Under the pieces are notes generated by a model. It made no database searches. It saw only the letters and a program-made list of their open reading frames with translations, and was not told the origin of the DNA. A DNA stretch of 64,000 bases, from IMG/VR virus record IMGVR_UViG_3300045988_155520, positions 224,001 through 288,000 of that record; one strand, written 5' to 3'. The stretch's first letter is position 1. Every line of letters starts with the position of its first letter. The translations under genes were made by a program, and so were the position numbers. This document shows positions 1 to 61,832 of this stretch, one piece after another. Source of the DNA: a virus.

Positions 1-776
1 TCCTCATAACTTTCTTTGTCATTATCATATATCTCTTCCTTTTTGTAAGCACATTCCAAATCATACTTGCTTGTGTTGAGAAATGACATAGAACACTCGT
101 CATTATCATAAATGATTTGAATGTTATTCTCATTGAGTTTATCCTTCATCTTCATAAACTCATCAACAAGTTCCTTCTGCTCGTCTGTTAGCGAAAGTGC
201 CTTGAGAATACCCTCCTTAATAGTTTCAGTTCCGTTCTCTGATACTTTAATATCATTCCAAGCCAAAGCCTCCTCCCTTGTCTTGTAAATACCCTTGAAA
301 GCGTTATCATACTTTCCATTCTCTCCATATATAATAGGTGCACCTATGTGTACCTCCTCAACATCACCATTTGCAAACTTGTAAGATACAAAATCATAGA
401 AATTAGTACCGCCATTATTAACAAGTTGTGCAGGCAATTCACGTACCGATGTTAAACCATTCAAGAAGTCTACAAGTGACAACTCCTCCTCGATACGGAT
501 ATCCTTCTCATAGTCCTCTACAGAATTGTAAGCGACAAAATTTTTCATTATCTTGCCTTCAAAAGGTTTCTGTGACACTTCAAAGAAAGTAACACCATTT
601 TTATTTTTGGAAATTACTTTCTCCTCACTTCCCTTTGATGTGACCATGTAAAGAATAACACCGCTTAATGTATCAACACTATGAAACTTGATAGAACACA
701 ATGTAAGAACATTGTTAATCATTACATACGCATCAACATTTGAAGATGTAATCACACGAATAGTTAAATTTTCCAT
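1..776 (-). CDS. hypothetical protein, C-terminus beyond left edge
   Basis: ATG at 776 (MENLTIRVITSSNVDAYV...). Minus-strand frame stays open to position 1 by hand translation. Absent from the ORF track because it runs off the edge. Promoter 815-846 lies just upstream. Confidence 0.7.
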   Translation of the reverse strand, partial: MENLTIRVITSSNVDAYVMINNVLTLCSIKFHSVDTLSGVILYMVTSKGSEEKVISKNKNGVTFFEVSQKPFEGKIMKNFVAYNSVEDYEKDIRIEEELSLVDFLNGLTSVRELPAQLVNNGGTNFYDFVSYKFANGDVEEVHIGAPIIYGENGKYDNAFKGIYKTREEALAWNDIKVSENGTETIKEGILKALSLTDEQKELVDEFMKMKDKLNENNIQIIYDNDECSMSFLNTSKYDLECAYKKEEIYDNDKESYE

Positions 777-814
777 AATTCTTAATTTGTTTGTTTATTA
801 CTGAATTGTGAGTG

Positions 815-846
815 CAAAGGTAAGCAATTATTTTTATACTACCAAA
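815..846 (-). promoter_or_regulatory. Bacteroidota-type promoter
   Basis: On the minus strand: -7 TACCTTTG (815-822), -33 TTTG (843-846), 20-nt spacer. ATG at 776. Confidence 0.75.
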
Positions 847-870
847 TATTTCCTTACTTTAAACTTTTAT

Positions 871-1512
871 TTAACACTTATCTTCCAAACAATCTATTAG
901 GTGTTGTAATAAATTGTATGTTCCCTCTATACTAAGCGCACCTAAAGGGAAAGTCTGTGTATTTGCTTTCAACATAACACGTTTATCTTCCACGCTTATG
1001 CTTTTAAAACTTTCTTCATTTGTAGCTATGCAAGTGTGGAACATATCGCAATCTTCAAAGATAAAAGTTCTCTCGTCCTCGTCTGAAAGAAGTTCGATAA
1101 ACTTTTTTTCAATATCCTTACGTAACTTGTAAATTTTATCATCAAAATACAAGAAATTTTGACAATAATACTCAATAGCAAGATACACTGCGTTATCGGT
1201 ATGGTAATAACAATCATTGCGACTAATATATCCTTCTTTGTCTACAAATACATGAGAAGACAAATCGGTAGTATTAACTACCTTGATGTATATATCGTCC
1301 TTAGTTAATAAATCGCCACGAACTAACTTAATATCAGTTACCTCTGTGTCGTAAACTTCTCCCTGCTTATTTGCAAGAAGAACGCATGGTGTATCGGTAT
1401 CTCTACCATAATTTGCATTATCTGTAATTGATATGTGGGTAATTTCATTATCCAACATCAACTTAATAGCTGTTTCTCTGTTTCTTTCTAAAACAGAATT
1501 TAATGATTCCAT
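871..1512 (-). CDS. hypothetical protein
   Basis: 213-aa ORF with its own promoter at 1559-1590. Overlapping plus-strand and other-frame ORFs look spurious. Confidence 0.8.
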   Translation of the reverse strand: MESLNSVLERNRETAIKLMLDNEITHISITDNANYGRDTDTPCVLLANKQGEVYDTEVTDIKLVRGDLLTKDDIYIKVVNTTDLSSHVFVDKEGYISRNDCYYHTDNAVYLAIEYYCQNFLYFDDKIYKLRKDIEKKFIELLSDEDERTFIFEDCDMFHTCIATNEESFKSISVEDKRVMLKANTQTFPLGALSIEGTYNLLQHLIDCLEDKC

Positions 1513-1558
1513 AACTCTAAATGTTTTGTTTAATTGTTTGTTTATTGATTTACGTTTG

Positions 1559-1590
1559 CAAAGATACTAACTTAATTGCAAACTGCCAAA
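1559..1590 (-). promoter_or_regulatory. Bacteroidota-type promoter
   Basis: -7 TATCTTTG (1559-1566), -33 TTTG (1587-1590), 20-nt spacer. Confidence 0.75.
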
Positions 1591-1764
1591 CATATTTCTG
1601 ATTTTAACACTTATTTAACATATCACTTTATAGGTTATATATTATATACGCACACACAATATATTATATAATCTCAAATAAGACGTTTTAAGACGTGAGA
1701 ATTACTCACGACTTGTAATTTATCATCGTATAACTTATAAAGTATTAGAATGAAAATAAACCAC

Positions 1765-1810
1765 ACATAAAAGGAAATCTATCACTACTTATCACAAGCA
1801 ATGATAGATT
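1765..1810 (-). terminator. hairpin terminator with conserved loop
   Basis: Stem AATCTATCA (1776-1784) pairs with TGATAGATT (1802-1810). On the minus strand a T-rich tract (TCCTTTTAT) follows. The loop ACTTATCACAAGCA is shared with 3126-3160. Confidence 0.55.
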
Positions 1811-1821
1811 AATAAAAAAAA

Positions 1822-2010
1822 CAAACTAAATTATAACCTATTCCGATAGTTGTTCGTTAACAAATCCTAACAAAAACGTCAGCTTTGTTACTAATCATCT
1901 GTAAGCATTTCAACCTACAGCGGAGCTATCTTTCATCGCCCGTATTAAGATGTTACGGGCACCATTAAGGTCTCTGTGAACCCTATTCCTTCATATTATC
2001 TATTTTATCC
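1822..2010 (-). ncRNA. orphan TnpB 3'-end / omega-RNA-like scaffold copy plus 21-nt flank
   Basis: 1843 to about 2010 aligns base for base with 21650 to about 21815, the 3' end of tnpB plus 67 nt downstream. It retains hairpin GCCCGTA (1938-1944) / TACGGGC (1954-1960). The coding frame is broken by a 1-nt deletion upstream of the HRDLNGARNI codons. Homology ends at 1843, followed in minus sense by the 21 nt AATAGGTTATAATTTAGTTTG and then T8 (1814-1821). Confidence 0.55.
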
Positions 2011-2077
2011 TTCCACTCATCGTAACTATGTGACGTTATAATCATGATTATAACTACCACCAAAATATAAATCATCA

Positions 2078-2440
2078 TCATTCTTTTGTCCGTGCATAAG
2101 TTCCTACAAGTTCGTCCAAAATAGCTATCCAATCTCCATAGTGAAAATCAGAACAATATTTTAAATCTTCTGTGAACTCTTCATTGTTAGCAATGTAAGT
2201 AATATCAATTGTTTCCGTTTCGTCATTTACAGACAATTCTTTTACATTGATATCCAACAATGAGTTATCCGACCACCCATCAAAATCAGGTGCCAAAGTT
2301 GAATAGATAACTTCCACTTTACCCCCACATGATATAACAATATCACGCATAACATTCAATACTTCCTCCGCACTCTTTTCTAAATTCTCTCGTGCTGACA
2401 TTGAAAGTTCCGAAAACTTTAATTTAAATGATTTATCCAT
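2078..2440 (-). CDS. hypothetical protein
   Basis: 120-aa ORF with promoter 2471-2502. Confidence 0.8.
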   Translation of the reverse strand: MDKSFKLKFSELSMSARENLEKSAEEVLNVMRDIVISCGGKVEVIYSTLAPDFDGWSDNSLLDINVKELSVNDETETIDITYIANNEEFTEDLKYCSDFHYGDWIAILDELVGTYARTKE

Positions 2441-2470
2441 AATTCTTTATATTTAATTTGTTTACGCTTG

Positions 2471-2502
2471 CAAAGTTAAGAAAATAAATTGAACTATCCA
2501 AA
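2471..2502 (-). promoter_or_regulatory. Bacteroidota-type promoter
   Basis: -7 TAACTTTG (2471-2478), -33 TTTG (2499-2502), 20-nt spacer. Confidence 0.75.
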
Positions 2503-2596
2503 TATTTTATACTAATAAAAGTTAATAGTCTATTAAATTAAAAGTAGTATGTCAACCATATTAGTTAAAACACACTACTTGAAAAAAAATATTGAA

Positions 2597-2926
2597 CTAT
2601 TTTTTGAAACTTTCTCCGATTGCATTAATAACATCATCACTTACATTTAATTCAGATGATATATATAGACGCTTATATCTCTCATTGTCATTCATAACAA
2701 ACATAAGTTTGATGATTTTTCCTTTATAATCTAAATACCAAATATGAGGTGACAAAACAGATTTACTATCGGTTTTTAATATAGTAGATACGTCCTTGCG
2801 TGTTAAGTCCACGTCAATAATAGTCCTATCAAAAAGAGTTTTAAAAAACTCACTAATCTTATTAGATTCATTTTTTGAATAAGACTTTAAATCTTTTATC
2901 TTATTATTTAAATTAATTGCATTCAT
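2597..2926 (-). CDS. hypothetical protein
   Basis: 109-aa ORF with promoter 2957-2988. Confidence 0.8.
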   Translation of the reverse strand: MNAINLNNKIKDLKSYSKNESNKISEFFKTLFDRTIIDVDLTRKDVSTILKTDSKSVLSPHIWYLDYKGKIIKLMFVMNDNERYKRLYISSELNVSDDVINAIGESFKK

Positions 2927-2956
2927 AATTTCTATTTGTTTATTGATTTACGACTA

Positions 2957-2988
2957 CAAAGATAATTATTTAATTTGATATATCCAAA
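2957..2988 (-). promoter_or_regulatory. Bacteroidota-type promoter
   Basis: -7 TATCTTTG (2957-2964), -33 TTTG (2985-2988), 20-nt spacer. Confidence 0.75.
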
Positions 2989-3115
2989 TAGATTTTATAT
3001 TTTAATATTAATTTAACACTTGATAGAATATTTGCTTTGTAAGACGTTAAAACAAACTATCTATATAAGTTATCAGATAAAACAAAAGAACTCTTTAGAA
3101 ACGAAATAAAGTGCA

Positions 3116-3160
3116 TAAAACAAAAAATCTACCATGACTTATCACAAGCAATGGTAGATT
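3116..3160 (-). terminator. hairpin terminator with conserved loop
   Basis: Stem AATCTACCAT (3126-3135) pairs with ATGGTAGATT (3151-3160). On the minus strand TTTTTTGTTTT follows. The loop matches the 1776-1810 hairpin and the stem differs by compensatory changes. Confidence 0.7.
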
Positions 3161-3212
3161 ATGAAAAACATTGACTAACTAACCAACTAAATTATTTTCT
3201 ATTGTATTTTTT

Positions 3213-3563
3213 TTAATCAAAATATATCCTATCAACTAAAGACAAAACGTCTTCCATGTGCATAGCATCAATATTTACCCACTTATCACACTTCTGTCCA
3301 TTTTCGACAACAACATGACCTTCAAAACTTGTAAAGTAATCAGTTTTATTGCTTCTTACTTTGTCGATATATAATAGCGAACAAGTTTTATTAATAGCTG
3401 TGCCTTGTAAAAGATAACACTTGAAAGGGTAGTTATTATTCAACACAGAAACACCTTCTTGTCCATACTTTTCAATTTCAGTTTTAACTTCATCAAAACA
3501 TTCACGATAGTAATTAGAAATATCGTCTAAATATCCCTTGATAATAGCTTGATTGTTTGTCAT
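3213..3563 (-). CDS. hypothetical protein (tandem paralog of 3569-3922)
   Basis: 116-aa ORF. Shares the C-terminal pattern CDKWVNIDAM.. / CDEWIAINDF.. with its neighbour. Confidence 0.8.
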   Translation of the reverse strand: MTNNQAIIKGYLDDISNYYRECFDEVKTEIEKYGQEGVSVLNNNYPFKCYLLQGTAINKTCSLLYIDKVRSNKTDYFTSFEGHVVVENGQKCDKWVNIDAMHMEDVLSLVDRIYFD

Positions 3564-3568
3564 AACGT

Positions 3569-3922
3569 TTACTTGCTTTGTTCAAATTTAATACAACCAA
3601 TAATACCAAATGCTGTTTCAATGTCAAAATCATTGATTGCTATCCACTCATCGCACACTTCATGGTTATTAGTTACCACGTGTACTTCAAGTATCGGTTC
3701 GGGCAATACACTATCAGCGACACGAATAGCGTTAATCTCGTAACGTACAGATTCGCAATCATCGTAAACAGCGTCCGCAACATAATTCTCATCGTCCCAA
3801 ACAACAGGTAAACCCTTCTCTCCAAATGGTTTCAAATAATTTACAACATAAGCAATTGTCATGTTATATCGGTTATATGTTTCATACATTAACCTATCAA
3901 ATTCTTTTTGAAATTCTTTCAT
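3569..3922 (-). CDS. hypothetical protein (tandem paralog of 3213-3563)
   Basis: 117-aa ORF separated from its paralog by a 5-nt gap. Confidence 0.8.
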   Translation of the reverse strand: MKEFQKEFDRLMYETYNRYNMTIAYVVNYLKPFGEKGLPVVWDDENYVADAVYDDCESVRYEINAIRVADSVLPEPILEVHVVTNNHEVCDEWIAINDFDIETAFGIIGCIKFEQSK

Positions 3923-3946
3923 AATTCTAAATGATTATTAGTTTGT

Positions 3947-4120
3947 TTATTCAATTTCAATATCGGTAAATTCAGTGTCAACTACTCTCATACCTTCAAT
4001 CTCATCAGCTGTTACTGAATAAGTACATTCTGTACCAAATGTATCTAATAACTCTTCTTCTGTCATGTTTTCGTCATGTTCAACCAAAACACTAATTGTT
4101 AATTGTAGTCTTGTTTTCAT
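3947..4120 (-). CDS. small acidic hypothetical protein (57 aa)
   Basis: Hand-translated MKTRLQLTISVLVEHDENMTEEELLDTF...EIE. ATG lies 42 nt downstream of the -7 box at 4162-4169. Below the ORF-track size cutoff. Confidence 0.6.
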   Translation of the reverse strand: MKTRLQLTISVLVEHDENMTEEELLDTFGTECTYSVTADEIEGMRVVDTEFTDIEIE

Positions 4121-4161
4121 AATTCCTTTTTGTTTGTTTGTTTGTTAATTGATTTGTAGTG

Positions 4162-4193
4162 CAAAGGTAATGAAATAAATTGAAACTACAAAA
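4162..4193 (-). promoter_or_regulatory. Bacteroidota-type promoter
   Basis: -7 TACCTTTG (4162-4169), -33 TTTG (4189-4192), 19-nt spacer. Confidence 0.75.
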
Positions 4194-4213
4194 TATTCCA
4201 TTACTATTAACAT

Positions 4214-4531
4214 TTATTTAACACTAATAAAGTTTTTGTTCTTATTGAATTGATTAAAAACATCAACACAAATTGTCATTTCGCTATATACGTTGTCTAC
4301 ATACATAGTCCTTGCCCATTCTTTTGCCTCCTCTAAAGTTGGAAAACTATTAGTAGGTGTCCTATCATCATATTCCCTATAGAAATCATAACAAGTTTTA
4401 TTTAAGTAAGAAGATTTACTAATTTTGCATATTCCTTCACTTGTTACGGCTAATAAATCACCTTCCATTTCAAACCATTCAAGACAAACAGACTTGGCTG
4501 CAATCTGACTTATGTTAATCTCTTTTTCCAT
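4214..4531 (-). CDS. hypothetical protein
   Basis: 105-aa ORF, last gene of the unit driven from promoter 5458-5489. Confidence 0.8.
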   Translation of the reverse strand: MEKEINISQIAAKSVCLEWFEMEGDLLAVTSEGICKISKSSYLNKTCYDFYREYDDRTPTNSFPTLEEAKEWARTMYVDNVYSEMTICVDVFNQFNKNKNFISVK

Positions 4532-4541
4532 AGGTAATTTA

Positions 4542-4790
4542 TTATAAATTCATTTCATATACTGCCTTCATGTTTCCTATCTTATTAATCTCAACATGAC
4601 AAGATTTATCAGACTTCTTACAATAGTAAACGTCCTCCGCTATTGAAGATGCACAATTTTCCAAATAACTCTTATCATTATTGAATGTAAGAAATTTTCT
4701 CGCAAGTTCCAAACCGCTATAAGTGCCGTTCTCTATTTCCTTTGCGTGTTCTCTAATTGATAGAATAGGGTTTATATATACATTATTCAT
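4542..4790 (-). CDS. hypothetical protein
   Basis: 82-aa ORF tightly packed with its neighbours. Confidence 0.75.
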   Translation of the reverse strand: MNNVYINPILSIREHAKEIENGTYSGLELARKFLTFNNDKSYLENCASSIAEDVYYCKKSDKSCHVEINKIGNMKAVYEMNL

Positions 4791-4823
4791 ATTTCTAAAT
4801 TTAATATATGTTAAAAAAATATG

Positions 4824-5426
4824 TTAACAATCTCCAATCATAGGAGGACATATTAAATCAAATAATTGTTCCTCAACAACCTTCTTGAAAATATGATATA
4901 ACATAATTTGGTCTTTTAATCGTAATTGATTTATATATATCCATTTGTCACTAACCTTATCATAGAACCTTATTGAACCATTATCACATACAACCTTTGT
5001 AAAAGTGAAATGTCCATTTACATTTGGTATGGTACGAACATTCTCATTAGCAATAATTTCATTATTATTTAAAGCTAAGAAAGTTGCAAACTTGTCAATT
5101 ATTTTCTGAGACAAATCACTTTCTTCCTCGCTTAATTCATAAATTGTTTCAGTCAATGAAATAGCCTTATAGATATGATTTAAACCATGTTCACTTGATA
5201 AATCAGACATAGGGATAAATTTATTATCCAAACAATCAAGTCTATTAACGCAATGGAAATAAATATCGCCCTTACTAAGTACAATGTTGCATACATCATA
5301 CTCTTCAATATCTTTTCTAACAATAGGACAATTATTAACGAATGAAATATTATTACGATATTTCTTTTGCATATACATACGCAAATTATTTACATCACTC
5401 TCGCTAAATTTTAATAATTTACTCAT
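4824..5426 (-). CDS. hypothetical protein
   Basis: 200-aa ORF with promoter 5458-5489. Confidence 0.8.
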   Translation of the reverse strand: MSKLLKFSESDVNNLRMYMQKKYRNNISFVNNCPIVRKDIEEYDVCNIVLSKGDIYFHCVNRLDCLDNKFIPMSDLSSEHGLNHIYKAISLTETIYELSEEESDLSQKIIDKFATFLALNNNEIIANENVRTIPNVNGHFTFTKVVCDNGSIRFYDKVSDKWIYINQLRLKDQIMLYHIFKKVVEEQLFDLICPPMIGDC

Positions 5427-5457
5427 AATTCTTAATTTGTTTTATTGATTTACAATG

Positions 5458-5489
5458 CAAAAGTAGGAAATTAATTTGATATACACAAA
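5458..5489 (-). promoter_or_regulatory. Bacteroidota-type promoter
   Basis: -7 TACTTTTG (5458-5465), -33 TTTG (5486-5489), 20-nt spacer. Confidence 0.75.
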
Positions 5490-5520
5490 TAATCCCTTAC
5501 TTTTAACTAAAATTTAACGT

Positions 5521-6171
5521 TTACATACTAATATAAAGGTTTTTATTCTCACCACCTTCTGTGAGGATATAGAAGTGTCTACATATCGTAATTTTATCTT
5601 CAAAGGTAAGTTCATTGAAGTTGATATATGTTTCACTTGCATTGTCATATGCAAACATTTCCCCTTCTTTAAATTTAATTTCGGTAAATTCATACCAAAG
5701 TTTCCCAAACTCATCATCAAAACCTTTTTTAATAAAACATGGTTCTAACTCGTTGTCAGTATCGGAAATTACATTACCAAACATTTCAAACATTCGTAAG
5801 AAATTATTTTCCAAAGCCGTTGTAATGAATTTAAAATTACGGAATACCATAGAAAGTGTATCATCTGTAAAGCCTATATGTTCATAAATAATAAGTTCTC
5901 CTTCATTATAGGAACTTAAAACATTTTCAATAGGTAATGAACAAATTTCACCATGTTCTGTTGTACCACTAACCATTAACTTATTGTTAATAAGTGTTAA
6001 TTCCTTAACATCTAAAGTAACAATAGAATTTGTATCTTCTTTGTCCTTGCTTGGAATAACAAATTTAACTTGTGGATATGGTGCCGTCAAAAAATATGTT
6101 GAATTATTCTTTTTCAACATAGAAATTACTTCATTTCTCTTTCTCTCTACTAAATTTGTATAAGCACTCAT
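5521..6171 (-). CDS. hypothetical protein
   Basis: 216-aa ORF with promoter 6213-6244. The overlapping 5514-5720 and 5615-5887 ORFs look spurious. Confidence 0.8.
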   Translation of the reverse strand: MSAYTNLVERKRNEVISMLKKNNSTYFLTAPYPQVKFVIPSKDKEDTNSIVTLDVKELTLINNKLMVSGTTEHGEICSLPIENVLSSYNEGELIIYEHIGFTDDTLSMVFRNFKFITTALENNFLRMFEMFGNVISDTDNELEPCFIKKGFDDEFGKLWYEFTEIKFKEGEMFAYDNASETYINFNELTFEDKITICRHFYILTEGGENKNLYISM

Positions 6172-6262: not shown

Positions 6263-6361
6263 GTTAATTACCTTGCGGTAAAGTGTTACAAACATCACAA
6301 AAATTGGTGCGATAGTAATAGATACGTTGTGATTACCTTTCGGTATTATATTACAAACATC
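6263..6361. repeat. about 95-bp intergenic element with two TTACC-N4-GGTAA palindromes 65 bp apart (copy 1 of 2)
   Basis: ATTACCTTGCGGTAAAGTGTTACAAACATC (6267-6296) and ATTACCTTTCGGTATTATATTACAAACATC (6332-6361). The same architecture and spacing recur at 61734-61832. Confidence 0.7.
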
Positions 6362-21548: not shown

Positions 21549-21626
21549 TAATAAAAGTTAAAAAAACAAAAGAGAGAAGCGACATTATTCATCACTTCTC
21601 TCTTTAATTTATAAAAAATATTTTTT

Positions 21627-21815
21627 GAATAACATGTTTCGTGAATACGCCGATAGTTGTTCGTTAACAAATCCTAACAATAGTGTCAGCCTTGTTACTA
21701 ATCATCCACAGGTATCTCAACCTGCAGCGGAGCTATCTCTCATCGCCCGTATTAAGATGTTACGGGCACCATTAAGGTCTCTATGGACCTTAATTCCATC
21801 ATACATAAACCACTC
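21627..21815 (-). ncRNA. omega-RNA-like 3' tail of tnpB (scaffold 21650 to about 21815, candidate guide 21627-21649)
   Basis: Block duplicated at 1843 to about 2010. Hairpins GCCCGTA (21745-21751) / TACGGGC (21761-21767) and CAGG (21709-21712) / CCTG (21721-24). Conservation ends abruptly at 21650. Confidence 0.5.
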
Positions 21816-23066
21816 TTTTCCACCCAAGTTAGTCATTAACTCACCAGTAAAGCTATTGGTCTTGCTTGTGTATGACTCATTTTGTTCTACATACGCCACA
21901 CCGCACTCCTTGCACTTTTGCTTCAATCTCTCCTTAAACTCAAAGAATCGAAGGGATAGCATAGAGCGTACAATACTCTTACGTAGCTTCCTACCTTTCT
22001 TCGTCATTCCTTTTACCTCGAAAGGAGGGAATACTACGACAGAAAAATTGTGCACAAGGTAGTTTATACACTGCCAGTGCAATTCATCAACCAAGTCTTG
22101 TATTCTGTGGTACGTCCTATTAAGCGTGCGCTTCAGTTTACCTTTCTTCTTCTTATCCTTTGTTAATGCCAACCTGCTTAGCAGGTGGTCACGCTTAAGG
22201 TTAAGTGTTAGTATTCTGTCAAAGGCGTGTACACCAAGCCATCCAAATCGTCCATCTTCACTGAAGTAGGTAAGGAAATTCCTAACCCCAGGGTCTAAGG
22301 CAACAATACCACCTTGGCTTTCGGTCGGCATGGTTGTTATCTTCTGAGGTACGGAAAGATACCATCTTCCGTGGTCATAAATGAGACGACAATCACAGAT
22401 GTCATTTTTAAAAAACTCTCTTTCAGAGAACTTGAGTTTACCACTGATAGTGCGGTAAATTCCACTTGTTGACACAGCGGATTTAGGAATGTAACAACTC
22501 TGAACAGGGTTTTTACGAGTCTTATAATGCAACTTAAATGGTTTACCAGACTTCTTTGTTTTATTGCAGTTTGTCCACCATGAAGTGTAAGCGTCCTTTA
22601 CTGCAATCTTCTTTATCTGATATGGCACAGATTTAATATAGCTTTCAGTAAATTCAGCTAAGATTGTAGTACTCATTTTCATCCACCCTTTAATTTCAAT
22701 TTCTTTGCCGTTAAAGTGTTTAATGCAAGTATTGTACACCTTTCTTTCAACGCCAAACCACTGCTTAAAGAGTTGCTTTTGCTGTTGTGATGGATAAATC
22801 CTTATCCGTCTTGCCTTCGTCACTATAGTTCCTGGGTCTATGCATTCTTTATGTAAATGTATAAAGAGTTGCAAATAAGTATTCTGTGGGTTATTATTCT
22901 TAGATGTGACTTGTTTTGTAGAAAACCATGGTTTAACATTCATTGCACAGGAAGTGTTATCACATTCTGACATAGCACATTCTATGTCTTTGTGTGACAA
23001 CAAGTGTGAACTAATGCTTTTACATAAATCATCATAAAAAGTCTTATGGTCTTCCTGTACAGTCAT
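21650..23066 (-). mobile_element. TnpB-only IS200/IS605-superfamily-like element; left-end boundary unresolved
   Basis: tnpB without a tnpA. The right-end position is inferred from the homology break with the orphan copy. No terminal structures identified upstream of 23066. Confidence 0.35.
21717..23066 (-). CDS. tnpB: TnpB-family RuvC nuclease lacking the zinc ribbon
   Basis: 449 aa. Motifs: RIRIYPSQQQKQLFKQWFGVERKVYN, GIVALDPGVRNF (RuvC-I D), VVFPPFEVKGM (RuvC-II E), NESYTSKT, VHRDLNGARNILIRA (RuvC-III D). No Cys between YTSKT and HRD. The first about 95 residues are an extension carrying 5 Cys and 5 His within the first 75 residues. Confidence 0.85.
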   Translation of the reverse strand: MTVQEDHKTFYDDLCKSISSHLLSHKDIECAMSECDNTSCAMNVKPWFSTKQVTSKNNNPQNTYLQLFIHLHKECIDPGTIVTKARRIRIYPSQQQKQLFKQWFGVERKVYNTCIKHFNGKEIEIKGWMKMSTTILAEFTESYIKSVPYQIKKIAVKDAYTSWWTNCNKTKKSGKPFKLHYKTRKNPVQSCYIPKSAVSTSGIYRTISGKLKFSEREFFKNDICDCRLIYDHGRWYLSVPQKITTMPTESQGGIVALDPGVRNFLTYFSEDGRFGWLGVHAFDRILTLNLKRDHLLSRLALTKDKKKKGKLKRTLNRTYHRIQDLVDELHWQCINYLVHNFSVVVFPPFEVKGMTKKGRKLRKSIVRSMLSLRFFEFKERLKQKCKECGVAYVEQNESYTSKTNSFTGELMTNLGGKEWFMYDGIKVHRDLNGARNILIRAMRDSSAAG

Positions 23067-23323
23067 TATTTTTTATTTCTCTATTTAAAATATAATAAAA
23101 CCATAGGCTTTATCAAGTTATTATAAAAAATTATTAGTAACTGAAGAATAGTTAATACGCCTCAATTTTATATATTTTTGTATTTATATATGTATATTAT
23201 AATATATTGATTATCAGATAGTTACAATATCTAAATAATTAACATTTATGATAACAGAACTTAATGAGGGCCGTGCGTTGATACGTATGTTTATTTGCTA
23301 AAATATCACATCATTTCATGTAT

Positions 23324-34305: not shown

Positions 34306-35832
34306 TTATTTAAAAAACTTAGCGAACTCTTCTCCACCGTACTCATCAGCAGTTAATTTTATAATCTCTCTAATGGTGTACTTTTCCTTATGAGGAGTCA
34401 GCAATCTATTCTCAATAAAGTCTCTTGTACCAGTTGAACATGCGCCAGTAATAGACCTATATGCAACGATTGCTTCCTCAAAAGACAACGTATCATCCAG
34501 TGACAAATTCTTATAATCTGATGTATCTCTATCATTTATCTTATATATAAGGTCAGATTTAGCTTCTGCAAGAGTTGCCCCATGTGACCAATGACCTTCA
34601 CCATCAGTGATAAGATAAAGTGGATTATTTTCTTGCCCAAGTTTATGTACTTTATATACATTACCATGGTGAGAATCAATTACTGAGAAAATACCGTCAG
34701 CATTAATATACCTCACGCCATCTTTCTCCCATAAAGGAACCATATTTTTAATATCATGTATTTTCTTTTCCTGTTCTGGAGAAAGGACTCTATTAACTTG
34801 TGAAACATCTACAATTTCTGGATTATCTATTAAAACACAATCTACAACTGTTAAGTTATCTGGTAGTTCTATTATATCTGAACGATTTAGTTCAAGATAA
34901 TCACCGACAGTTAAGTTGTTAGGTAATTTTTTAATACGACTATTAACCAAAATAAGGCTATCAGTAACAGTTAAATTATCAGGTAGATGCAAATCATTCG
35001 TATGACATAGGTCTATGTCACCATTAACTTTCAAATTATCAGGAAGCGTTGTAATAGGAGTCTCACGAAGCGTAATAGAACCATTAACAACTAAGTTATC
35101 AGGAAGTTCTGTAATATTAGTATAACTTAGGTCCATACCTTCTCCAACTATTATGTTATTAGGTAACTTGGCTATATTTGTGTGATATGCACTGAGATAA
35201 CTACCAACTATCAAATTATCAGGAAGTTTTGTGATATCTGTATTACTTATATTAAGATATCCTCCGACTGTTAAGTTTTTTGGTAATTCTTTAATAGCAC
35301 TATAACTTAAACCAAGGTCTCCAAAAACGGTCAGGTTTTCTGGTAAACTGTTAATATCCGTATATTCCAAGTGAATACTTCTACCAACTGTTAGGTTATC
35401 AGGTAGTTTTGTGATATTACTGTAATCCAAACATAGAGAACCATTAACTATTAAGTTATTAGGTAACTCTGCTATAAACGTATTAATCAAAAATAAATCT
35501 CCGCCAACTTTTAAATTTTCTGGCAATTTTGTGACACCAGTACGGCATAATGATAAAAATCCACCAACTGTTAAATTATTTGGTAATTCTATAATATATG
35601 AATCAGTTAAGTCAAGAAAACCATTAACGGTTAAATTGTCTGGTAACTGACTAATATACTTATTACCAACCAAATCAAGATTTCCGTCATAATAAAACTT
35701 TCCCTCCTTAACTGAAAGTTCACACCAAGTTTCTTTATAGAATTTATCTATTATTTCTTTTTCTCTTTTAGTCATACGTTTTTTCTTTAAAAAATTCGCA
35801 TTTGGTATAAGGGCATTCTTTGAATTGTTCAT
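34306..35832 (-). CDS. LPxNLTV leucine-rich-repeat protein with conserved C-terminal domain
   Basis: 508 aa. About 13 tandem 23-aa units (LPDNLTVGGYLNISNTDITK...). C-terminal about 160 aa (WEKDGVRYINADGIFSVIDSHHGNVYKVHK...GEEFAKFFK) shared with 46974-48443. The true start may be MTKREKEIIDKF at 35775. Confidence 0.85.
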   Translation of the reverse strand: MNNSKNALIPNANFLKKKRMTKREKEIIDKFYKETWCELSVKEGKFYYDGNLDLVGNKYISQLPDNLTVNGFLDLTDSYIIELPNNLTVGGFLSLCRTGVTKLPENLKVGGDLFLINTFIAELPNNLIVNGSLCLDYSNITKLPDNLTVGRSIHLEYTDINSLPENLTVFGDLGLSYSAIKELPKNLTVGGYLNISNTDITKLPDNLIVGSYLSAYHTNIAKLPNNIIVGEGMDLSYTNITELPDNLVVNGSITLRETPITTLPDNLKVNGDIDLCHTNDLHLPDNLTVTDSLILVNSRIKKLPNNLTVGDYLELNRSDIIELPDNLTVVDCVLIDNPEIVDVSQVNRVLSPEQEKKIHDIKNMVPLWEKDGVRYINADGIFSVIDSHHGNVYKVHKLGQENNPLYLITDGEGHWSHGATLAEAKSDLIYKINDRDTSDYKNLSLDDTLSFEEAIVAYRSITGACSTGTRDFIENRLLTPHKEKYTIREIIKLTADEYGGEEFAKFFK

Positions 35833-36481: not shown

Positions 36482-36853
36482 TTAACCAATTAATTTAATA
36501 TGTTTAATCCCTTTCTCTTTCAGCTCAGCCAATATCATCTTCACTAAGTCGTAATACTTTCGATTCTGAAAAACAATATTAAGAGCATCTTCTGCATCGT
36601 TATGATATTCTTGAACATAATTTGTGATTGCTTCCTCAAAAGCGTAGTTATCGACTCCTTCGTAGTAGTCGCTGAAATCAATAATTGATGTCAGCTCACA
36701 GCACTCTTCATGCCCTTTGAAAGACCATACTTCACCGCTATAGTCTCGGATAAACTGCTTTCGGTACTTTTGCCCTTTGCGGATTTTGCGGCCACATAAG
36801 TCGCAAACATAGTCCTTACGTGCGATAGGCTTAGATTCATCTATTAACTCCAT
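36482..36853 (-). CDS. Cys/His small protein (paralog of 44780-45145)
   Basis: 123 aa. YVCDLCGRKIRKGQKYRKQ...HEECCEL versus HFCELCCCKINIGQKYKKV...HTECYEL. Confidence 0.8.
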   Translation of the reverse strand: MELIDESKPIARKDYVCDLCGRKIRKGQKYRKQFIRDYSGEVWSFKGHEECCELTSIIDFSDYYEGVDNYAFEEAITNYVQEYHNDAEDALNIVFQNRKYYDLVKMILAELKEKGIKHIKLIG

Positions 36854-45154: not shown

Positions 45155-45544
45155 TTATTTAATTAATTCTGGATTTTCAAAAACATTACCAATGATGCTA
45201 CGTGTTTCATTTTCACGTATACCAAACAGATTATGGTCAAATTTATTGCCTGAAATGATGAAAATGTCTTTTGAATATACTATTACACCAATTTCATATT
45301 CAATTTCTCCATTTGGAAAATTAAATAATTTAATCTTGGTAATATCTCCTTCGAACATTTTCTTACCATTCCCATCTTTAGCACCTGTATATTGACCGAT
45401 GCTATCACTATCAACTCTTGTGAATGACATAATATCATCTTCAATTTTTCTAATAGCATAACCATTAGAAAGATGAATAAGGTCGCCATAAACCCACTCA
45501 TTTTTGATATTATCAAACCCACGAAACAGTATTTCTCTTTCCAT
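45155..45544 (-). CDS. YopX-family protein
   Basis: 129 aa. ILFRGFDNIKNEWVYG, IGQYTGAKDGNGKKMFEGDI, IIGNVFENPELI. Confidence 0.8.
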   Translation of the reverse strand: MEREILFRGFDNIKNEWVYGDLIHLSNGYAIRKIEDDIMSFTRVDSDSIGQYTGAKDGNGKKMFEGDITKIKLFNFPNGEIEYEIGVIVYSKDIFIISGNKFDHNLFGIRENETRSIIGNVFENPELIK

Positions 45545-46485: not shown

Positions 46486-46740
46486 TTATAAATTGAAATA
46501 ATCTTCGATAGGACTTGAAAGAAAATCCCAATTCTTATCGTCTGTTGTTATTTGAAATTCAAGTAATGGACAATTATCATAATCATAAAAATCGAATTTC
46601 TCATTAAAATCTATTAAGCAGTTGTAATTATCTTCTTGAAATTCTTTATTCCATTCATCGCCAGGATACATCGGAGAGCGATAATATTCTTTAATAACTT
46701 TATTATTATCTCCTAATTCTACTAATCTGAATCTTGCCAT
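46486..46740 (-). CDS. hypothetical protein
   Basis: 84-aa ORF. Confidence 0.75.
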   Translation of the reverse strand: MARFRLVELGDNNKVIKEYYRSPMYPGDEWNKEFQEDNYNCLIDFNEKFDFYDYDNCPLLEFQITTDDKNWDFLSSPIEDYFNL

Positions 46741-55859: not shown

Positions 55860-57479
55860 TCATACACTTCCAATACATTCACGACCTACCTTTGGTAGGC
55901 TTCTTCGAAACGATAACAATACTTCTTTCACTTTCTCACGTCTAAGTAACCTTGGCTCAAAAGCACCATTATCAAGCTGTTTTAAGAGTTTATCTCGTAA
56001 CACGGTTACAAGAACTCTATTTTTTATATTTTTTGCAGCATTAAAGTCTGCATTATCTTTATGCCCACATTCAACACATTCAAATGTTTCTTGATTTGGT
56101 CTATTACCATCTTCAATGCAGCCACATACAGGACACATCTTTGATGTATAACTTGCTTGAACAGTTGAAACTGCGATGTCATACTTCCTTGCAATATGTT
56201 CCACCTCTTGTTTCAAACTACTTAAACCAAGAAAGCTAACCTTTCGGTTGTAATTTATATCTTTATTGTCACCATCTTTGACGTAACACTTTCCAAATCC
56301 ATTATTAAGATTTTCCATTACAATGTGACCAGTTCCTTTAATTTTTTCATTCTTACACATAGTAGCTATGGTTTGCTGTTCATTCTTAATAATTTTCTCC
56401 TTTAACTTGTTAAGTTTACGTTGTTTGCGTTTGCCTACCTTATATTCTTTATTTTTCCCTTTAAATCTATCAATCTCAAGAGATAACTTGCAAAAATCAT
56501 TAACTAATTTTCTATCATAGTCATAAGTGGTTTCATCTGATAAGCAGAACAAATTGTGTTTGCAATTAACATCTATGCCAATAGTCTGTCCATTTGGTTC
56601 TGGGATATACCTTTCACCATCTTTACATATGTTTACATTCACTTGATGCTTCTTTTCATCGAATGTAAGAGTATATACATAATCAGGAGTGTTCTTTCTA
56701 TAATCCTTCATACTTCCGTGCCATCCTTTATTAAAGGTAACTGGTATGTCAAATGATTTCCTACTGAGCCCACTAAGACTTATGAATGAATTGATAACTG
56801 ACCCAAACCTGCGATTATAATCAATTATCTTTTTCTTTCTACATCTACCACGAAAGGTTAATGACCTGAACTCTATAGGATTGTTGGCATATTTGTCAAT
56901 AATACGTTTTCTCTTTGATAATGCAAGTGCATATAACCTTTCAAAACCGAATTTATCACAACATCTTATTATATTGTTATAGAAGTCACGTTTATTAGCA
57001 TCACATTTGTCAACGTTAGATTTGATATAAGCAATAGTACCTTCATTTCCATACCTTGCAAGGTAAGTAAGACAATTGGATAAAGATGTGTGTTTCTTAT
57101 CAACAATTACTTTTTTCAAGTCACCCTTTTTATTATTCTTTGTATCACGTTTATAACATTCAAAACCTTTGAATACAGATATTTCAAAGACAAGCTTACG
57201 TTGTATTGCATCAAATTTATTCTGATAACAAGTAAATACTTGTGTATAAATTTGCGTATCAAAGGAACTTGGTACCGAACCTTTGAATTTTGTTCTCATT
57301 TCTTTTGCAAATTGGAACTTTGTATAATCAAGATAGTGCAATAAGTTTTCATTTACATGTTGTGATACTATGTTTTTATGTTTTTGAATAAGTACAGCAA
57401 AGTTATGTAACTCGTCATATTTCTGACGAGTTAAATCCTTTGAATGGAATACCTTTGTGTACTTACTCTGTATAATCAT
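55860..57479 (-). CDS. tnpB: TnpB/Cas12-like RuvC nuclease with intact zinc ribbon
   Basis: 539 aa. TIGIDVNCKHNLF (RuvC-I D), GHIVMENLNNGFGK (RuvC-II E), SYTSKMCPVCGC...FECVECGHKDNADFNAAKNIKNR (CxxC..CxxC plus RuvC-III D). Confidence 0.85.
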   Translation of the reverse strand: MIIQSKYTKVFHSKDLTRQKYDELHNFAVLIQKHKNIVSQHVNENLLHYLDYTKFQFAKEMRTKFKGSVPSSFDTQIYTQVFTCYQNKFDAIQRKLVFEISVFKGFECYKRDTKNNKKGDLKKVIVDKKHTSLSNCLTYLARYGNEGTIAYIKSNVDKCDANKRDFYNNIIRCCDKFGFERLYALALSKRKRIIDKYANNPIEFRSLTFRGRCRKKKIIDYNRRFGSVINSFISLSGLSRKSFDIPVTFNKGWHGSMKDYRKNTPDYVYTLTFDEKKHQVNVNICKDGERYIPEPNGQTIGIDVNCKHNLFCLSDETTYDYDRKLVNDFCKLSLEIDRFKGKNKEYKVGKRKQRKLNKLKEKIIKNEQQTIATMCKNEKIKGTGHIVMENLNNGFGKCYVKDGDNKDINYNRKVSFLGLSSLKQEVEHIARKYDIAVSTVQASYTSKMCPVCGCIEDGNRPNQETFECVECGHKDNADFNAAKNIKNRVLVTVLRDKLLKQLDNGAFEPRLLRREKVKEVLLSFRRSLPKVGRECIGSV

Positions 57480-61733: not shown

Positions 61734-61832
61734 TGTGATTACCTTGCGGTATAACTTTACTAACATCCAGTTGACTACAAATTGAAGCCAAGTTACGTTG
61801 TAATTACCTTGCGGTATAATATTTATAACAGT
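61734..61832. repeat. about 95-bp intergenic element with two TTACC-N4-GGTAA palindromes 65 bp apart (copy 2 of 2)
   Basis: ATTACCTTGCGGTATAACTTTACTAACATC (61738-61767) and ATTACCTTGCGGTATAATATTTATAACA (61803-61830). The second unit is preceded by ACGTTGT, as in copy 1. Confidence 0.7.

What the first reader, a model, noticed from the sequence alone, without database searches (positions are those of the whole stretch)
1822..2010. Orphan omega-RNA-like copy 20 kb from its tnpB, with a different 21-nt 3' flank, a T8 stop and a compensatory stem change
Positions 1843 to about 2010 align base for base with 21650 to about 21815, the 3' end of tnpB plus its downstream tail. The protein cannot be made here. 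Only the last 22 codons (VHRDLNGARNILIRAMKDSSAVG) stay in frame, and a 1-nt deletion plus divergence destroys everything upstream.

RNA-level features are kept. The GCCCGTA/TACGGGC hairpin is identical (1938-1960). In the second hairpin the C21709-G21724 pair of the gene-linked copy is T1902-A1917 here, so the change is compensatory.

Homology ends at exactly the same scaffold position (CCGATAGTTG...). It is followed, in minus sense, by an unrelated 21 nt (AATAGGTTATAATTTAGTTTG), then T8 (1814-1821), then a terminator hairpin.

One reading is a decayed solo right end of a second insertion. A more interesting reading is a retained second guide RNA for the single TnpB, giving a two-guide, one-nuclease arrangement in a phage.
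Basis: partly seen in the sequence, partly recalled or inferred. Interest (0 to 1): 0.75.

Follow-up and report, generated by a model that had tools for sequence, protein, structure and literature searches.

The report
Solo guide-RNA module of a phage transposon
The "orphan" is a 139-bp piece of an IS607-type TnpB transposon, consisting only of its guide-RNA (ωRNA) scaffold and right end, inserted at a site that is empty in most related oral jumbo phages. It may still supply a second guide to the phage's TnpB nuclease, but that has not been shown.

Summary
Window 1843-1981 (minus strand) is a complete copy of the 139-nt ωRNA scaffold that ends the tnpB element at 21650-23159: 90% identity, and 157.5 versus 165.6 bits on a covariance model.

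It is not a full insertion worn down by random deletions. At least 10 related phage contigs have an empty site exactly here, and a metagenome contig (L069) carries the same orphan. Orphans with the same 5' edge sit at a second site in relatives, where this window is the empty allele. A third site holds a decayed copy.

The family is IS607-like:
- One relative keeps an intact serine recombinase, TnpA_S.
- Elements end in ...CTATC-GG and insert at RA-GG.
- The orphan's 5' edge coincides with an internal TTAA-GG motif inside tnpB.

Whether the orphan acts as a second guide is untested. It is intact, sense-oriented and lies in a 3' UTR. However, no TAM-bearing target was found, and each orphan carries one private change at a predicted paired position.

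Best reading: a non-autonomous, guide-only derivative that could use TnpB in trans for homing or retention. It is a new variant of a known kind, of moderate interest.

The parts
1843..1981 (-). Orphan ωRNA scaffold and right end (139 nt), ending ...CTATC-GG at 1843
   Evidence: Covariance model 157.5 bits, E 1.9e-35. 90% identity to 21650-21788. Absent from at least 10 relatives that have an empty site. Same copy in L069.
1822..1842 (-). Guide-equivalent 3' flank AATAGGTTATAATTTAGTTTG
   Evidence: The sequence diverges from the linked copy exactly after CTATCGG. It is unique in the window. It is homologous to the empty-site sequence of relatives except for the extra AATAGG.
1982..1989 (-). 5' junction GGAATAGG (TAM-like TA-GG). 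It is repeated at 1837-1844 across the 3' junction.
   Evidence: Coordinates. Relatives have a single GAATAG here.
1776..1821 (-). T8 run (1814-1821) and terminator-like hairpin (1776-1810). Both are pre-existing 3'-UTR features of the locus.
   Evidence: The same hairpin and a T-run occur in empty-site relatives.
1983..2132 (-). Small conserved ORF (49 aa, hydrophobic). Its stop codon TAG (1983-1985) abuts the orphan.
   Evidence: Conserved in relatives.
2078..2440 (-). Upstream 120-aa gene of the same transcription unit. Read-through from it would carry the orphan.
   Evidence: 83-91% identical protein in 15 related contigs. A recurring TGCAAAG promoter-like motif lies upstream at 2470-2505 (family D8).
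21650..23159 (-). Non-autonomous IS607-type element: LE, tnpB and ωRNA/RE, 1510 bp. It is flanked by GG at 23160-23161 and ends in GG at 21650-21651.
   Evidence: At least 11 relatives have the empty site TTGA-GG-CGTATTCACGAAGC. Boundary coordinates.
21717..23066 (-). tnpB, 449 aa, with RuvC residues D258, E350 and D430 intact
   Evidence: Pfam Cas12f1-like_TNB, HTH_OrfB_IS605 and OrfB_IS605. PDB best hit is mimivirus Fanzor2 L79, 1.6e-20. dN/dS is 0.09-0.14 and the triad is invariant in 9 copies.
21650..21788 (-). tnpB-linked ωRNA scaffold. It overlaps the last 23 codons and runs 67 nt past the stop.
   Evidence: Covariance model 165.6 bits. Structure.
21629..21649 (-). Guide of the linked ωRNA, CGTATTCACGAAACATGTTAT
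   Evidence: It matches the empty alleles of relatives directly after TTGAGG. The first 12 nt are identical in several of them.
36486..36513 (-). Empty site B in this window: AAGG followed by a 24-nt exact match to the guide of the orphan carried by relatives
   Evidence: L001, L014, L070 and L084 carry a 139-nt orphan exactly here.
55860..57479 (-). Second, divergent TnpB-like gene (539 aa). It is not related to the orphan scaffold.
   Evidence: PHROG 506 at 9e-27 and Pfam Cas12f1-like_TNB at 9e-17. There is no meaningful similarity to the 449-aa TnpB.

Best explanation
The orphan is a non-autonomous, guide-RNA-only derivative of the IS607-type tnpB element that populates this family of human oral jumbo phages. 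It consists of exactly the 139 bp between an internal RA-GG motif in the 3' end of tnpB (TTAA-GG|TCCACAG) and the element's right end (...CTATC-GG). That stretch is the complete ωRNA scaffold.

Shown:
- It is an insertion relative to at least 10 relatives.
- The same unit with the same 5' edge occurs at a second site in relatives, with a decayed copy at a third.
- The family uses GG-core junctions and an RAGG 5' motif.
- An intact serine recombinase, TnpA_S, exists in a relative.
- The scaffold fold is supported by covariation and is intact in the orphan.

Inferred:
- It arose by TnpA_S-type GG-core recombination at the internal pseudo-target. Either a 139-bp circle was excised and re-inserted, or the left end plus tnpB was deleted in situ.
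- In this genome, which has no TnpA_S, it is immobile.
- It is transcribed as the 3' UTR of the 2440-to-1983 transcription unit.
- The 449-aa TnpB can load it in trans. The resulting complex would cut an empty allele (RAGG followed by AATAGGTTATAATTT...) in a co-infecting relative, so that recombinational repair retains or copies the module.

On this reading it is a selfish hitch-hiker on TnpB and not a domesticated weapon, and it may already be drifting towards decay.
For: Precise presence and absence:
- Site A: the window reads ...GAATAGG|GTTCAC...CTATCGG|AATAGGTTATAA, while L022-L031 and L035 read ...GAATAG|TTATAA.
- Site B: L001 reads ...GAAA-GG|TCCACAG...CTATC-GG|GATTAAAC, while the window reads ...GAAA-GG-GATTAAAC.
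- Further orphans are L069 (site A), L070 and L084 (site B) and L081 (site C).

IS607 identity:
- L014 9700-10308 encodes a 202-aa protein with MerR HTH and Resolvase domains, overlapping tnpB.
- The 5' flank of the left end is RA-GG at about 15 insertion sites.
- Empty alleles confirm the GG-core junctions of the linked element and of the L014b copy.
- Published IS607 biology matches: a strict GG target, a TnpB TAM equal to the target motif, a scaffold ending ...UCGG (PMC10690162), and TAMs AGGAG or GAGGG (PMC11061315).

Pseudo-target: GGAATTAAG|GTYCAYAG is present in all tnpB copies.

RNA:
- 42 pairs, 98.8% of cells paired; 0 of 500 shuffles reach the observed covariation; slid controls give 30-51%.
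- The orphan keeps 82 of 83 linked-invariant columns and has only one private change.

TnpB is functional by sequence: dN/dS about 0.1, with D, E and D invariant.

Context: sense orientation, immediately after a stop codon and before a terminator.

Homing logic holds elsewhere:
- The linked guide matches relatives' empty alleles after GAGG.
- The site-B orphan guide matches the window's empty site after AAGG.
- A tract of about 2 kb at 99-100% identity surrounds the site-B orphan in otherwise mosaic genomes.

Precedent: ωRNA-only elements that need TnpB in trans are noted for IS605 PATEs (PMC10055086).
Against: - No expression or binding data exist.
- The guide found no TAM-bearing target. The six exact 18-mer matches in IMG/VR are in unrelated contigs without RAGG.
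- The sampled empty alleles read GAATAG-TTATAA. They have no GG and differ from the guide by a 1-nt indel, so they would not be cut.
- The 5' motif at site A is TAGG, whereas the family motif is RAGG.
- Each orphan lineage has one private substitution, and each falls on a predicted paired position: 13:50 C.A in the window, 56:133 in L014, 68:77 in L001/L070. Orphans 3 of 4 versus linked copies 4 of 33, Fisher p 0.016. Covariance-model scores are also lower, Mann-Whitney p 0.02. However, two of the three changes lie in helices with no covariation support, at positions that are coding in the linked copies.
- Clearly decayed copies exist: L081, and the partial L045 copy next to a tRNA gene.
- The module lacks the left end and its motifs (GTTACTAAT, and the left-end copy of AACTATC), so mobilisation as a unit is uncertain.
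- The site-A junction carries a 6-nt duplication that a GG-core serine recombinase should not produce.
Confidence: 0.6

Rival explanations
1. Inert fossil. The module has the same origin, a solo right end of an IS607-type element, but it is not used by TnpB. It persists only because it is young, harmless in a 3' UTR, and occasionally homogenised by gene conversion from tnpB-linked copies.
For: The private changes fall on predicted paired positions, and orphans score lower on the covariance model. Decayed and partial orphans exist: L081 and L045. No cleavable target was found. L001 and L014 orphans differ at 6 of 139 positions, while 1.3 kb of flank is 100% identical; four of the six differences cluster in one loop, as expected from ectopic conversion. 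With one private change per copy, purifying selection cannot be demonstrated.
Against: The orphans are 10-12 differences from any sampled linked copy, yet they keep 82-83 of the 83 invariant columns. The same unit persists at a second site and in diverged, mosaic genomes, for example window versus L069. The orientation and 3'-UTR position are those expected for expression.
Confidence: 0.3
2. Domesticated second guide. The phage keeps the orphan to aim its TnpB at a host, plasmid or rival-phage sequence, in a two-guide, one-nuclease arrangement that benefits the phage.
For: The scaffold is intact and a cognate, catalytically intact TnpB is present in the same genome. Relatives' site-B orphan guide matches this window perfectly after AAGG, so orphan guides could in principle hit rival phages.
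Against: The guide is simply the sequence flanking the insertion, as for every transposon copy. It has no other match in the window and no TAM-bearing match in IMG/VR. The scaffold's right-end pattern found nothing real in 185,579 bacterial and archaeal species genomes. The orphan is absent from most relatives. The downstream T8 and terminator predate it.
Confidence: 0.05
3. Ordinary wreck. A full tnpB element once sat at 1843 and lost its left part through random deletions, leaving the right end by chance.
For: Truncated tnpB copies do exist in the family: L060 (residues about 360-449), L088, and the L097 pseudogene.
Against: The 5' edge is identical to the nucleotide at site B and homologous at site C, and it coincides with the GG of an internal RAGG motif. 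No full copy was found at sites A or B among about 45 scaffold-bearing loci, and no orphan at about 25 sites occupied by full copies. Sequence upstream of the edge is the native flank seen in empty-site relatives, not tnpB debris.
Confidence: 0.05

Closest known systems
IS607-family insertion sequences (TnpA_S serine recombinase, TnpB and ωRNA), e.g. the Clostridium botulinum IStron/IS607 system (PMC10690162) and ISFba1 (PMC11061315)
   Same: - TnpA_S with MerR HTH and resolvase domains overlaps tnpB in one relative.
- Elements end in GG and insert at GG without inverted repeats.
- The 5' motif is G-rich (RAGG; compare the published TGGG, GAGGG and AGGAG).
- The ωRNA overlaps the 3' end of tnpB and ends ...UCGG.
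- The guide equals the right-end flank and matches the empty allele.
   Different: - The elements are carried by large lytic-type phage genomes, often 2-4 copies per contig, and mostly without tnpA.
- The TnpB has lost its four zinc-finger cysteines and is closest in the PDB to mimivirus Fanzor2.
- No Rfam family matches the scaffold, including at a lenient threshold over 21560-21900.
- The orphan itself has neither tnpA, tnpB nor a left end.
PATE-like minimal IS200/IS605 elements that encode only an ωRNA and need TnpB in trans (Meers et al., PMC10055086)
   Same: A protein-less derivative of a TnpB transposon that retains the ωRNA. Its guide would have to be used by a TnpB encoded elsewhere.
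   Different: PATEs keep both transposon ends and are mobilised by the Y1 transposase TnpA. This unit has only the right end, and its 5' edge lies inside tnpB at a pseudo-target GG. It belongs to the serine-recombinase (IS607) lineage and sits in a phage.
Homing endonuclease genes and 'transposon non-restorative homing' between co-infecting phages or plasmids (review PMC13565253; IS605 gene drive in plasmids PMC11870625)
   Same: Presence/absence polymorphism at exact sites among related genomes. The nuclease target equals the empty allele. A near-identical tract surrounds an insertion in otherwise mosaic genomes.
   Different: Here the putative homing unit would carry no nuclease gene, only the guide. 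Homing has not been demonstrated.

Membership tests
IS607-family transposon | Serine recombinase TnpA_S (HTH plus resolvase catalytic domain) encoded next to or overlapping tnpB | tested here: met
   L014 9700-10308 is an intact 202-aa ORF; Pfam gives Resolvase 3.4e-8 and MerR 2.4e-7 on its first 120 residues. Truncated copies occur in L082, L078 and L064. There is no tnpA in the window itself, so both window copies are non-autonomous.
IS607-family transposon | Element terminates in GG and is integrated at a GG dinucleotide, with no terminal inverted repeats and no target-site duplication | tested here: met
   The linked element reads TTGA-GG|CGTATTAAC...CTATC-GG|CGTATTCAC, and the empty allele reads TTGA-GG-CGTATTCAC. 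The site-B orphan is equally clean. For the window orphan (site A), GG is present at both junctions, but AATAGG is duplicated relative to empty alleles, so that one case is inconclusive.
IS607-family transposon | TnpB with an intact RuvC D-E-D triad | tested here: met
   D258, E350 and D430 are invariant in 9 copies, and dN/dS is 0.09-0.14.
TnpB ωRNA (reRNA) | Scaffold overlaps the 3' end of tnpB and ends at the transposon right end; the sequence beyond it differs from copy to copy | tested here: met
   The linked scaffold at 21650-21788 spans the last 23 codons plus 67 nt and the GG. About 30 different downstream flanks follow ...CTATCG(G/T/C). The orphan is homologous over all 139 positions.
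TnpB ωRNA (reRNA) | Conserved secondary structure supported by covariation | tested here: met
   42 pairs, 98.8% paired. 7 pairs and 63 cells show changes on both sides. 0 of 500 shuffles reach the observed covariation, and slid controls give 30-51% paired. Hairpins 2 and 3 carry most of the support. Helices 13-16/47-50 and 52-56/133-137 never vary and so remain untested.
TnpB ωRNA (reRNA) | Transcribed, processed and bound by TnpB; guides TAM-dependent DNA cleavage | not testable with these tools
   Only context is available: sense orientation, 3' UTR, terminator at 1776-1810.
PATE / MITE-like non-autonomous element | Retains both transposon ends (left and right) without protein genes | tested here: not met
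   The 5' edge is inside tnpB (codon 427). The left-end motifs (GTTACTAAT, and the left-end copy of AACTATC) are absent from the 139-bp unit.
PATE / MITE-like non-autonomous element | Several dispersed copies with identical boundaries at sites that are empty in relatives | tested here: met
   Sites A, B and C, of which C is a decayed copy. Empty alleles were seen for A and B.
Domesticated RNA-guided system (TldR-like or CRISPR-like multi-guide) | Guide complementary to a non-self target next to the required motif, or an inactivated nuclease | tested here: not met
   The nuclease triad is intact. The guide matches only its own flank in the window. The IMG/VR 18-mer matches lack RAGG and are in unrelated contigs.

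The most novel reading that the evidence does not exclude
The 139-bp module is a guide-only selfish element. It is a free-standing ωRNA gene that parasitises the phage's TnpB (and, where present, TnpA_S) in trans. It directs cleavage of empty alleles in co-infecting jumbo phages and is copied into them by recombinational repair. That would make it a natural case of guide RNA genes uncoupled from their nuclease and multiplying a nuclease's target repertoire, which is a plausible step between transposon ωRNAs and multi-guide CRISPR-like systems, and a means of competition between phages.
Probability: 0.25. Interest if true: 0.8.

Novelty: new variant of a known kind. Interest (0 to 1): 0.5.

Why it matters
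If the orphan is used by TnpB in trans, it would be a natural example of a guide-RNA gene separated from its nuclease gene in a virus. It would also be the smallest conceivable homing element: 139 bp with no protein.

Two open questions would become testable. One is how single-guide transposon nucleases became multi-guide systems. The other is whether RNA-guided nucleases mediate competition between co-infecting phages.

There is also a practical yield. The family provides a compact 449-aa, Fanzor2-like TnpB. It comes with a defined 139-nt scaffold, an inferred RAGG TAM, dozens of natural guide and empty-site pairs, and an intact partner recombinase.

If the orphan is inert, the result is still useful. 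Solo ωRNA copies can arise by precise recombination at an internal pseudo-target, so a clean boundary is not in itself evidence of function.

Tried and rejected
- GenBank phage collection: no DNA match to window 1-6000 or to the orphan. Protein matches to TnpB reach only about 32% identity, in Vibrio phages.
- Rfam: no family reaches its gathering score. The lenient search over 21560-21900 gave only noise.
- Bacterial and archaeal species genomes: the 5 pattern matches all lack the scaffold, so they are chance hits. No host or chromosomal source was identified.
- Further decayed copies in the window: none, using the covariance model with filters off.
- Reciprocal product of mini-circle excision (tnpB ending at ...TTAAGG followed by flank): the only candidate was an unrelated gene.
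- Targets of the orphan guide: none with a TAM.
- Random-deletion origin: rejected because the 5' edge recurs and empty alleles are exact.
- Test for purifying selection on the orphan: not informative. There is only one private substitution per copy, and the window and L069 differ at 1 of 139 positions against about 3% in 260 nt of flank.
- Re-insertion of a 139-bp circle versus in-situ deletion: could not be separated. No site shows both a full copy and a clean orphan.
- The 6-nt duplication at site A remains unexplained (note).

Full report
**1. The observation**

The window holds two copies of one sequence: 1843-1985 and 21650-21792, 90% identical without gaps (family D11; alignment). The second copy is the 3' end of a 449-aa gene on the minus strand (21717-23066) plus 67 nt beyond its stop. 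Pfam assigns that gene to the TnpB family through Cas12f1-like TNB, HTH_OrfB_IS605 and OrfB_IS605.

In both copies homology stops at ...AACTATCGG, and unrelated sequence follows. A covariance model built later from 37 family members finds exactly these two copies in the 64 kb, at 165.6 and 157.5 bits, and nothing else above 14 bits.

Homology does not extend to 2010. Positions 1982-1995 are native flank.

**2. What the family is**

The window comes from a 250.7-kb contig of a human oral metagenome. It has no close relative among GenBank phages.

IMG/VR and metagenome scans recovered about 45 loci with the same scaffold, in related phage contigs of up to 222 kb. Several contigs carry two to four tnpB copies. 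The scaffold always ends ...CTATCG(G/T/C) and is followed by about 30 different flanks.

One copy, L014 9598-11425, carries an intact 202-aa ORF between its left end and tnpB. That ORF has a MerR-type HTH and a resolvase catalytic domain, and it overlaps tnpB. This is the hallmark of IS607-family elements.

The 5' flank of the left end reads RA-GG at about 15 independent sites. Comparison with empty alleles confirms the junctions:
- The window's own element is TTGA-GG|CGTATTAAC...CTATC-GG|CGTATTCACGAAAC. At least 11 relatives have TTGA-GG-CGTATTCACGAAGC.
- The autonomous L014b copy is an insertion at window 45327/45332, though there the flank sequences differ around the junction.

This agrees with published IS607 biology. 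The target requires a strict GG. The TnpB TAM equals the target motif. The scaffold ends ...UCGG (PMC10690162). Reported TAMs are AGGAG or GAGGG (PMC11061315). IS607 elements have no inverted repeats and make no duplication (PMC13565253).

The TnpB is under strong purifying selection (dN/dS 0.09-0.14 at dS 0.7-1.0), and D258, E350 and D430 are invariant. Its best solved relative is mimivirus Fanzor2 L79 at 1.6e-20.

**3. The RNA**

An alignment of 37 distinct 139-nt scaffolds gives a consensus fold with three well-defined hairpins and a closing helix that pairs GAUAG with the terminal CUAUC.

On a 42-pair structure, 98.8% of cells are paired. Seven pairs and 63 cells show changes on both sides. 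No shuffle out of 500 reaches the observed covariation, and sliding the partners drops pairing to 30-51%.

It is a polymorphism shared with tnpB-linked copies.

The scaffold diverges by about 10% between copies, whereas synonymous divergence in tnpB is about 0.8. The RNA and right-end region is therefore constrained at the nucleotide level.

**4. What the orphan is**

Relatives found through the neighbouring 120-aa gene show an empty site exactly here:
- Empty alleles (L022-L031, L035): ...GATAATATGGAAGAATAG|TTATAATTTAGTTTG...
- Window...ATGAAGGAATAGG|GTTCACAG...CTATCGG|AATAGGTTATAATTTAGTTTG.

No sampled relative has a full tnpB at this site. Metagenome contig L069 has the same orphan with one difference, in flanks that are 94-98% identical and then become unrelated.

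The same 139-bp unit occurs at a second site in L001, L014, L070 and L084. There it reads ...GAAA-GG|TCCACAG...CTATC-GG|GATTAAAC, and this window is the empty allele...GAAA-GG-GATTAAAC (36486-36517). A third site (L081) holds a copy with the same 5' edge but a decayed 5' part. L060 has a tnpB fragment at that same site. A partial copy lies next to a tRNA gene in L045.

The shared 5' edge coincides with TTAA-GG|T(C/T)CACAG inside tnpB. This is a perfect copy of the family's RA-GG target motif, and it is present in every tnpB copy. The orphan is thus the segment between an internal pseudo-target GG and the right-end GG. Its junctions are of the kind a GG-core serine recombinase makes.

It is not a PATE in the strict sense, because it lacks the left end and its motifs.

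I could not decide between two origins: excision of a 139-bp circle followed by re-insertion, or deletion of the left end plus tnpB in situ. No site shows both a full copy and a clean orphan. The orphans at sites A and B are not each other's closest relatives.

Site A is also less clean than site B. GGAATAGG is present at both junctions, whereas empty alleles have one GAATAG. This is unexplained (note).

**5. Does it work as a guide?**

For:
- The scaffold is complete and keeps 82 of the 83 columns that are invariant among linked copies.
- It lies in sense orientation, one base after the stop codon of a conserved small ORF and upstream of the terminator of that transcription unit.
- A cognate, intact TnpB is encoded 20 kb away.
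- The homing logic holds for neighbouring cases. The linked guide matches relatives' empty alleles after GAGG. The site-B orphan's guide matches this window perfectly after AAGG. A tract of about 2 kb at 99-100% identity surrounds the site-B orphan in otherwise mosaic genomes.

Against:
- There are no expression data.
- The guide has no TAM-bearing match in IMG/VR.
- The sampled empty alleles lack the GG and differ from the guide by a 1-nt indel.
- The 5' motif here is TAGG, whereas the family motif is RAGG.
- Each orphan lineage has exactly one private substitution, and each falls on a predicted paired position. Orphans also score lower on the model (p about 0.02, small and non-independent samples). 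Two of those three changes lie in helices without covariation support, at positions that are coding in linked copies, so this is weak evidence of relaxed constraint.
- Decayed orphans exist.
- With one private change per copy, selection cannot be tested.

**6. Verdict**

The orphan is a guide-only, non-autonomous derivative of an IS607-type TnpB element in a jumbo phage. It was generated precisely at an internal pseudo-target. At most it acts as a selfish trans-user of TnpB for retention or homing. The idea of a domesticated second guide has no support.

The T8 run and the terminator predate the insertion. The window also contains a second, very divergent TnpB-like gene (55860-57479).

ωRNA-only elements that need TnpB in trans have been noted before, for IS605 PATEs (PMC10055086). 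Homing between co-infecting phages has been proposed in general terms (PMC13565253). The new points are a solo-right-end form without a left end, the serine-recombinase lineage, the phage setting, and the recurrent pseudo-target boundary.

Noticed in passing
window 55860-57479 (minus): A second TnpB-like gene of 539 aa (PHROG 506 at 9e-27; Pfam Cas12f1-like TNB at 9e-17). It keeps the CxxC...CxxC zinc finger and has no meaningful similarity to the 449-aa TnpB. It is conserved in relatives (L016, L010/L011, L073). Its guide RNA, if any, was not looked for.
   Followed up: partly
window 36486-36513 (minus): This window is the empty allele for the orphan carried by relatives L001, L014, L070 and L084. 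AAGG is followed by a 24-nt exact match to their guide, so this phage is a predicted target of their orphan ωRNA.
   Followed up: yes
window 45315-45340 (minus); L014 9598-11425: Empty site of the autonomous tnpA_S + tnpB copy found in a relative. The window differs from the occupied allele mainly in the GG core and the first 6 nt of the target (AAGATTAAAT versus AAGGTGAAGC), with conservative coding changes. That is the pattern expected of a cleavage-resistant allele.
   Followed up: partly
window 46623-46733; L015 9897-11404: Many relatives (L015, L017, L003, L006, L014a, L061) carry a full tnpB element here. It replaces about 100 nt at the start of an ORF that is intact in the window.
   Followed up: partly
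window 21717-23066: The 449-aa TnpB has lost all four zinc-finger cysteines (ESYTSKTNSFTGE...MYDGIKVHRD). Its closest solved structure is mimivirus Fanzor2 L79 (9b0l, 1.6e-20), far ahead of the only bacterial TnpB-like chain found (8iaz, 0.0017).
   Followed up: partly
L115-L125, junction near locus position 5830: Empty alleles of the window's tnpB site vary. Most keep TTGAGG and the first 12 nt of the guide. L116 and L120 have GG changed to AG, and L115, L119 and L122 have mismatches from position 7 of the target. These may be resistant alleles.
   Followed up: no
window 6263-6361 and 61734-61830; L018-L021 at site A: Short hairpin repeats (ATTATACCGNAAGGTAATCACAA). In relatives L018-L021 they occupy the same intergenic spot as the orphan, flanked by GAATAG. 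This spot seems to be a hotspot for small insertions.
   Followed up: no
L045 7296-7406 (= L013 4905-5015): A partial scaffold lacking hairpin 1 (covariance model 99 bits). It lies directly after a tRNA gene and a T9 run, about 6 kb from a full tnpB in a 222-kb contig.
   Followed up: partly
L001 9333-9471 versus L014 18007-18145: Two orphans at the same site differ at 6 of 139 positions, four of them clustered in the hairpin-1 loop. Meanwhile 1.3 kb of right flank is 100% identical. This suggests ectopic gene conversion from tnpB-linked scaffolds.
   Followed up: partly
window, many sites, e.g. 813-846, 1557-1590, 2470-2505, 4160-4196: A recurring motif TGCAAAG(A/G)TA lies upstream of minus-strand genes. 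Its reverse complement, TAnnTTTGCA, resembles the Bacteroidota -7 promoter element from my own knowledge, which hints at a Bacteroidota host. This was not tested.
   Followed up: no
window 34306-35832 and 46974-48443 (minus): Two paralogous genes of about 500 aa are built from 60-nt (20-aa) tandem repeats, in a leucine-rich-repeat-like pattern. The two regions are 60-76% identical.
   Followed up: no
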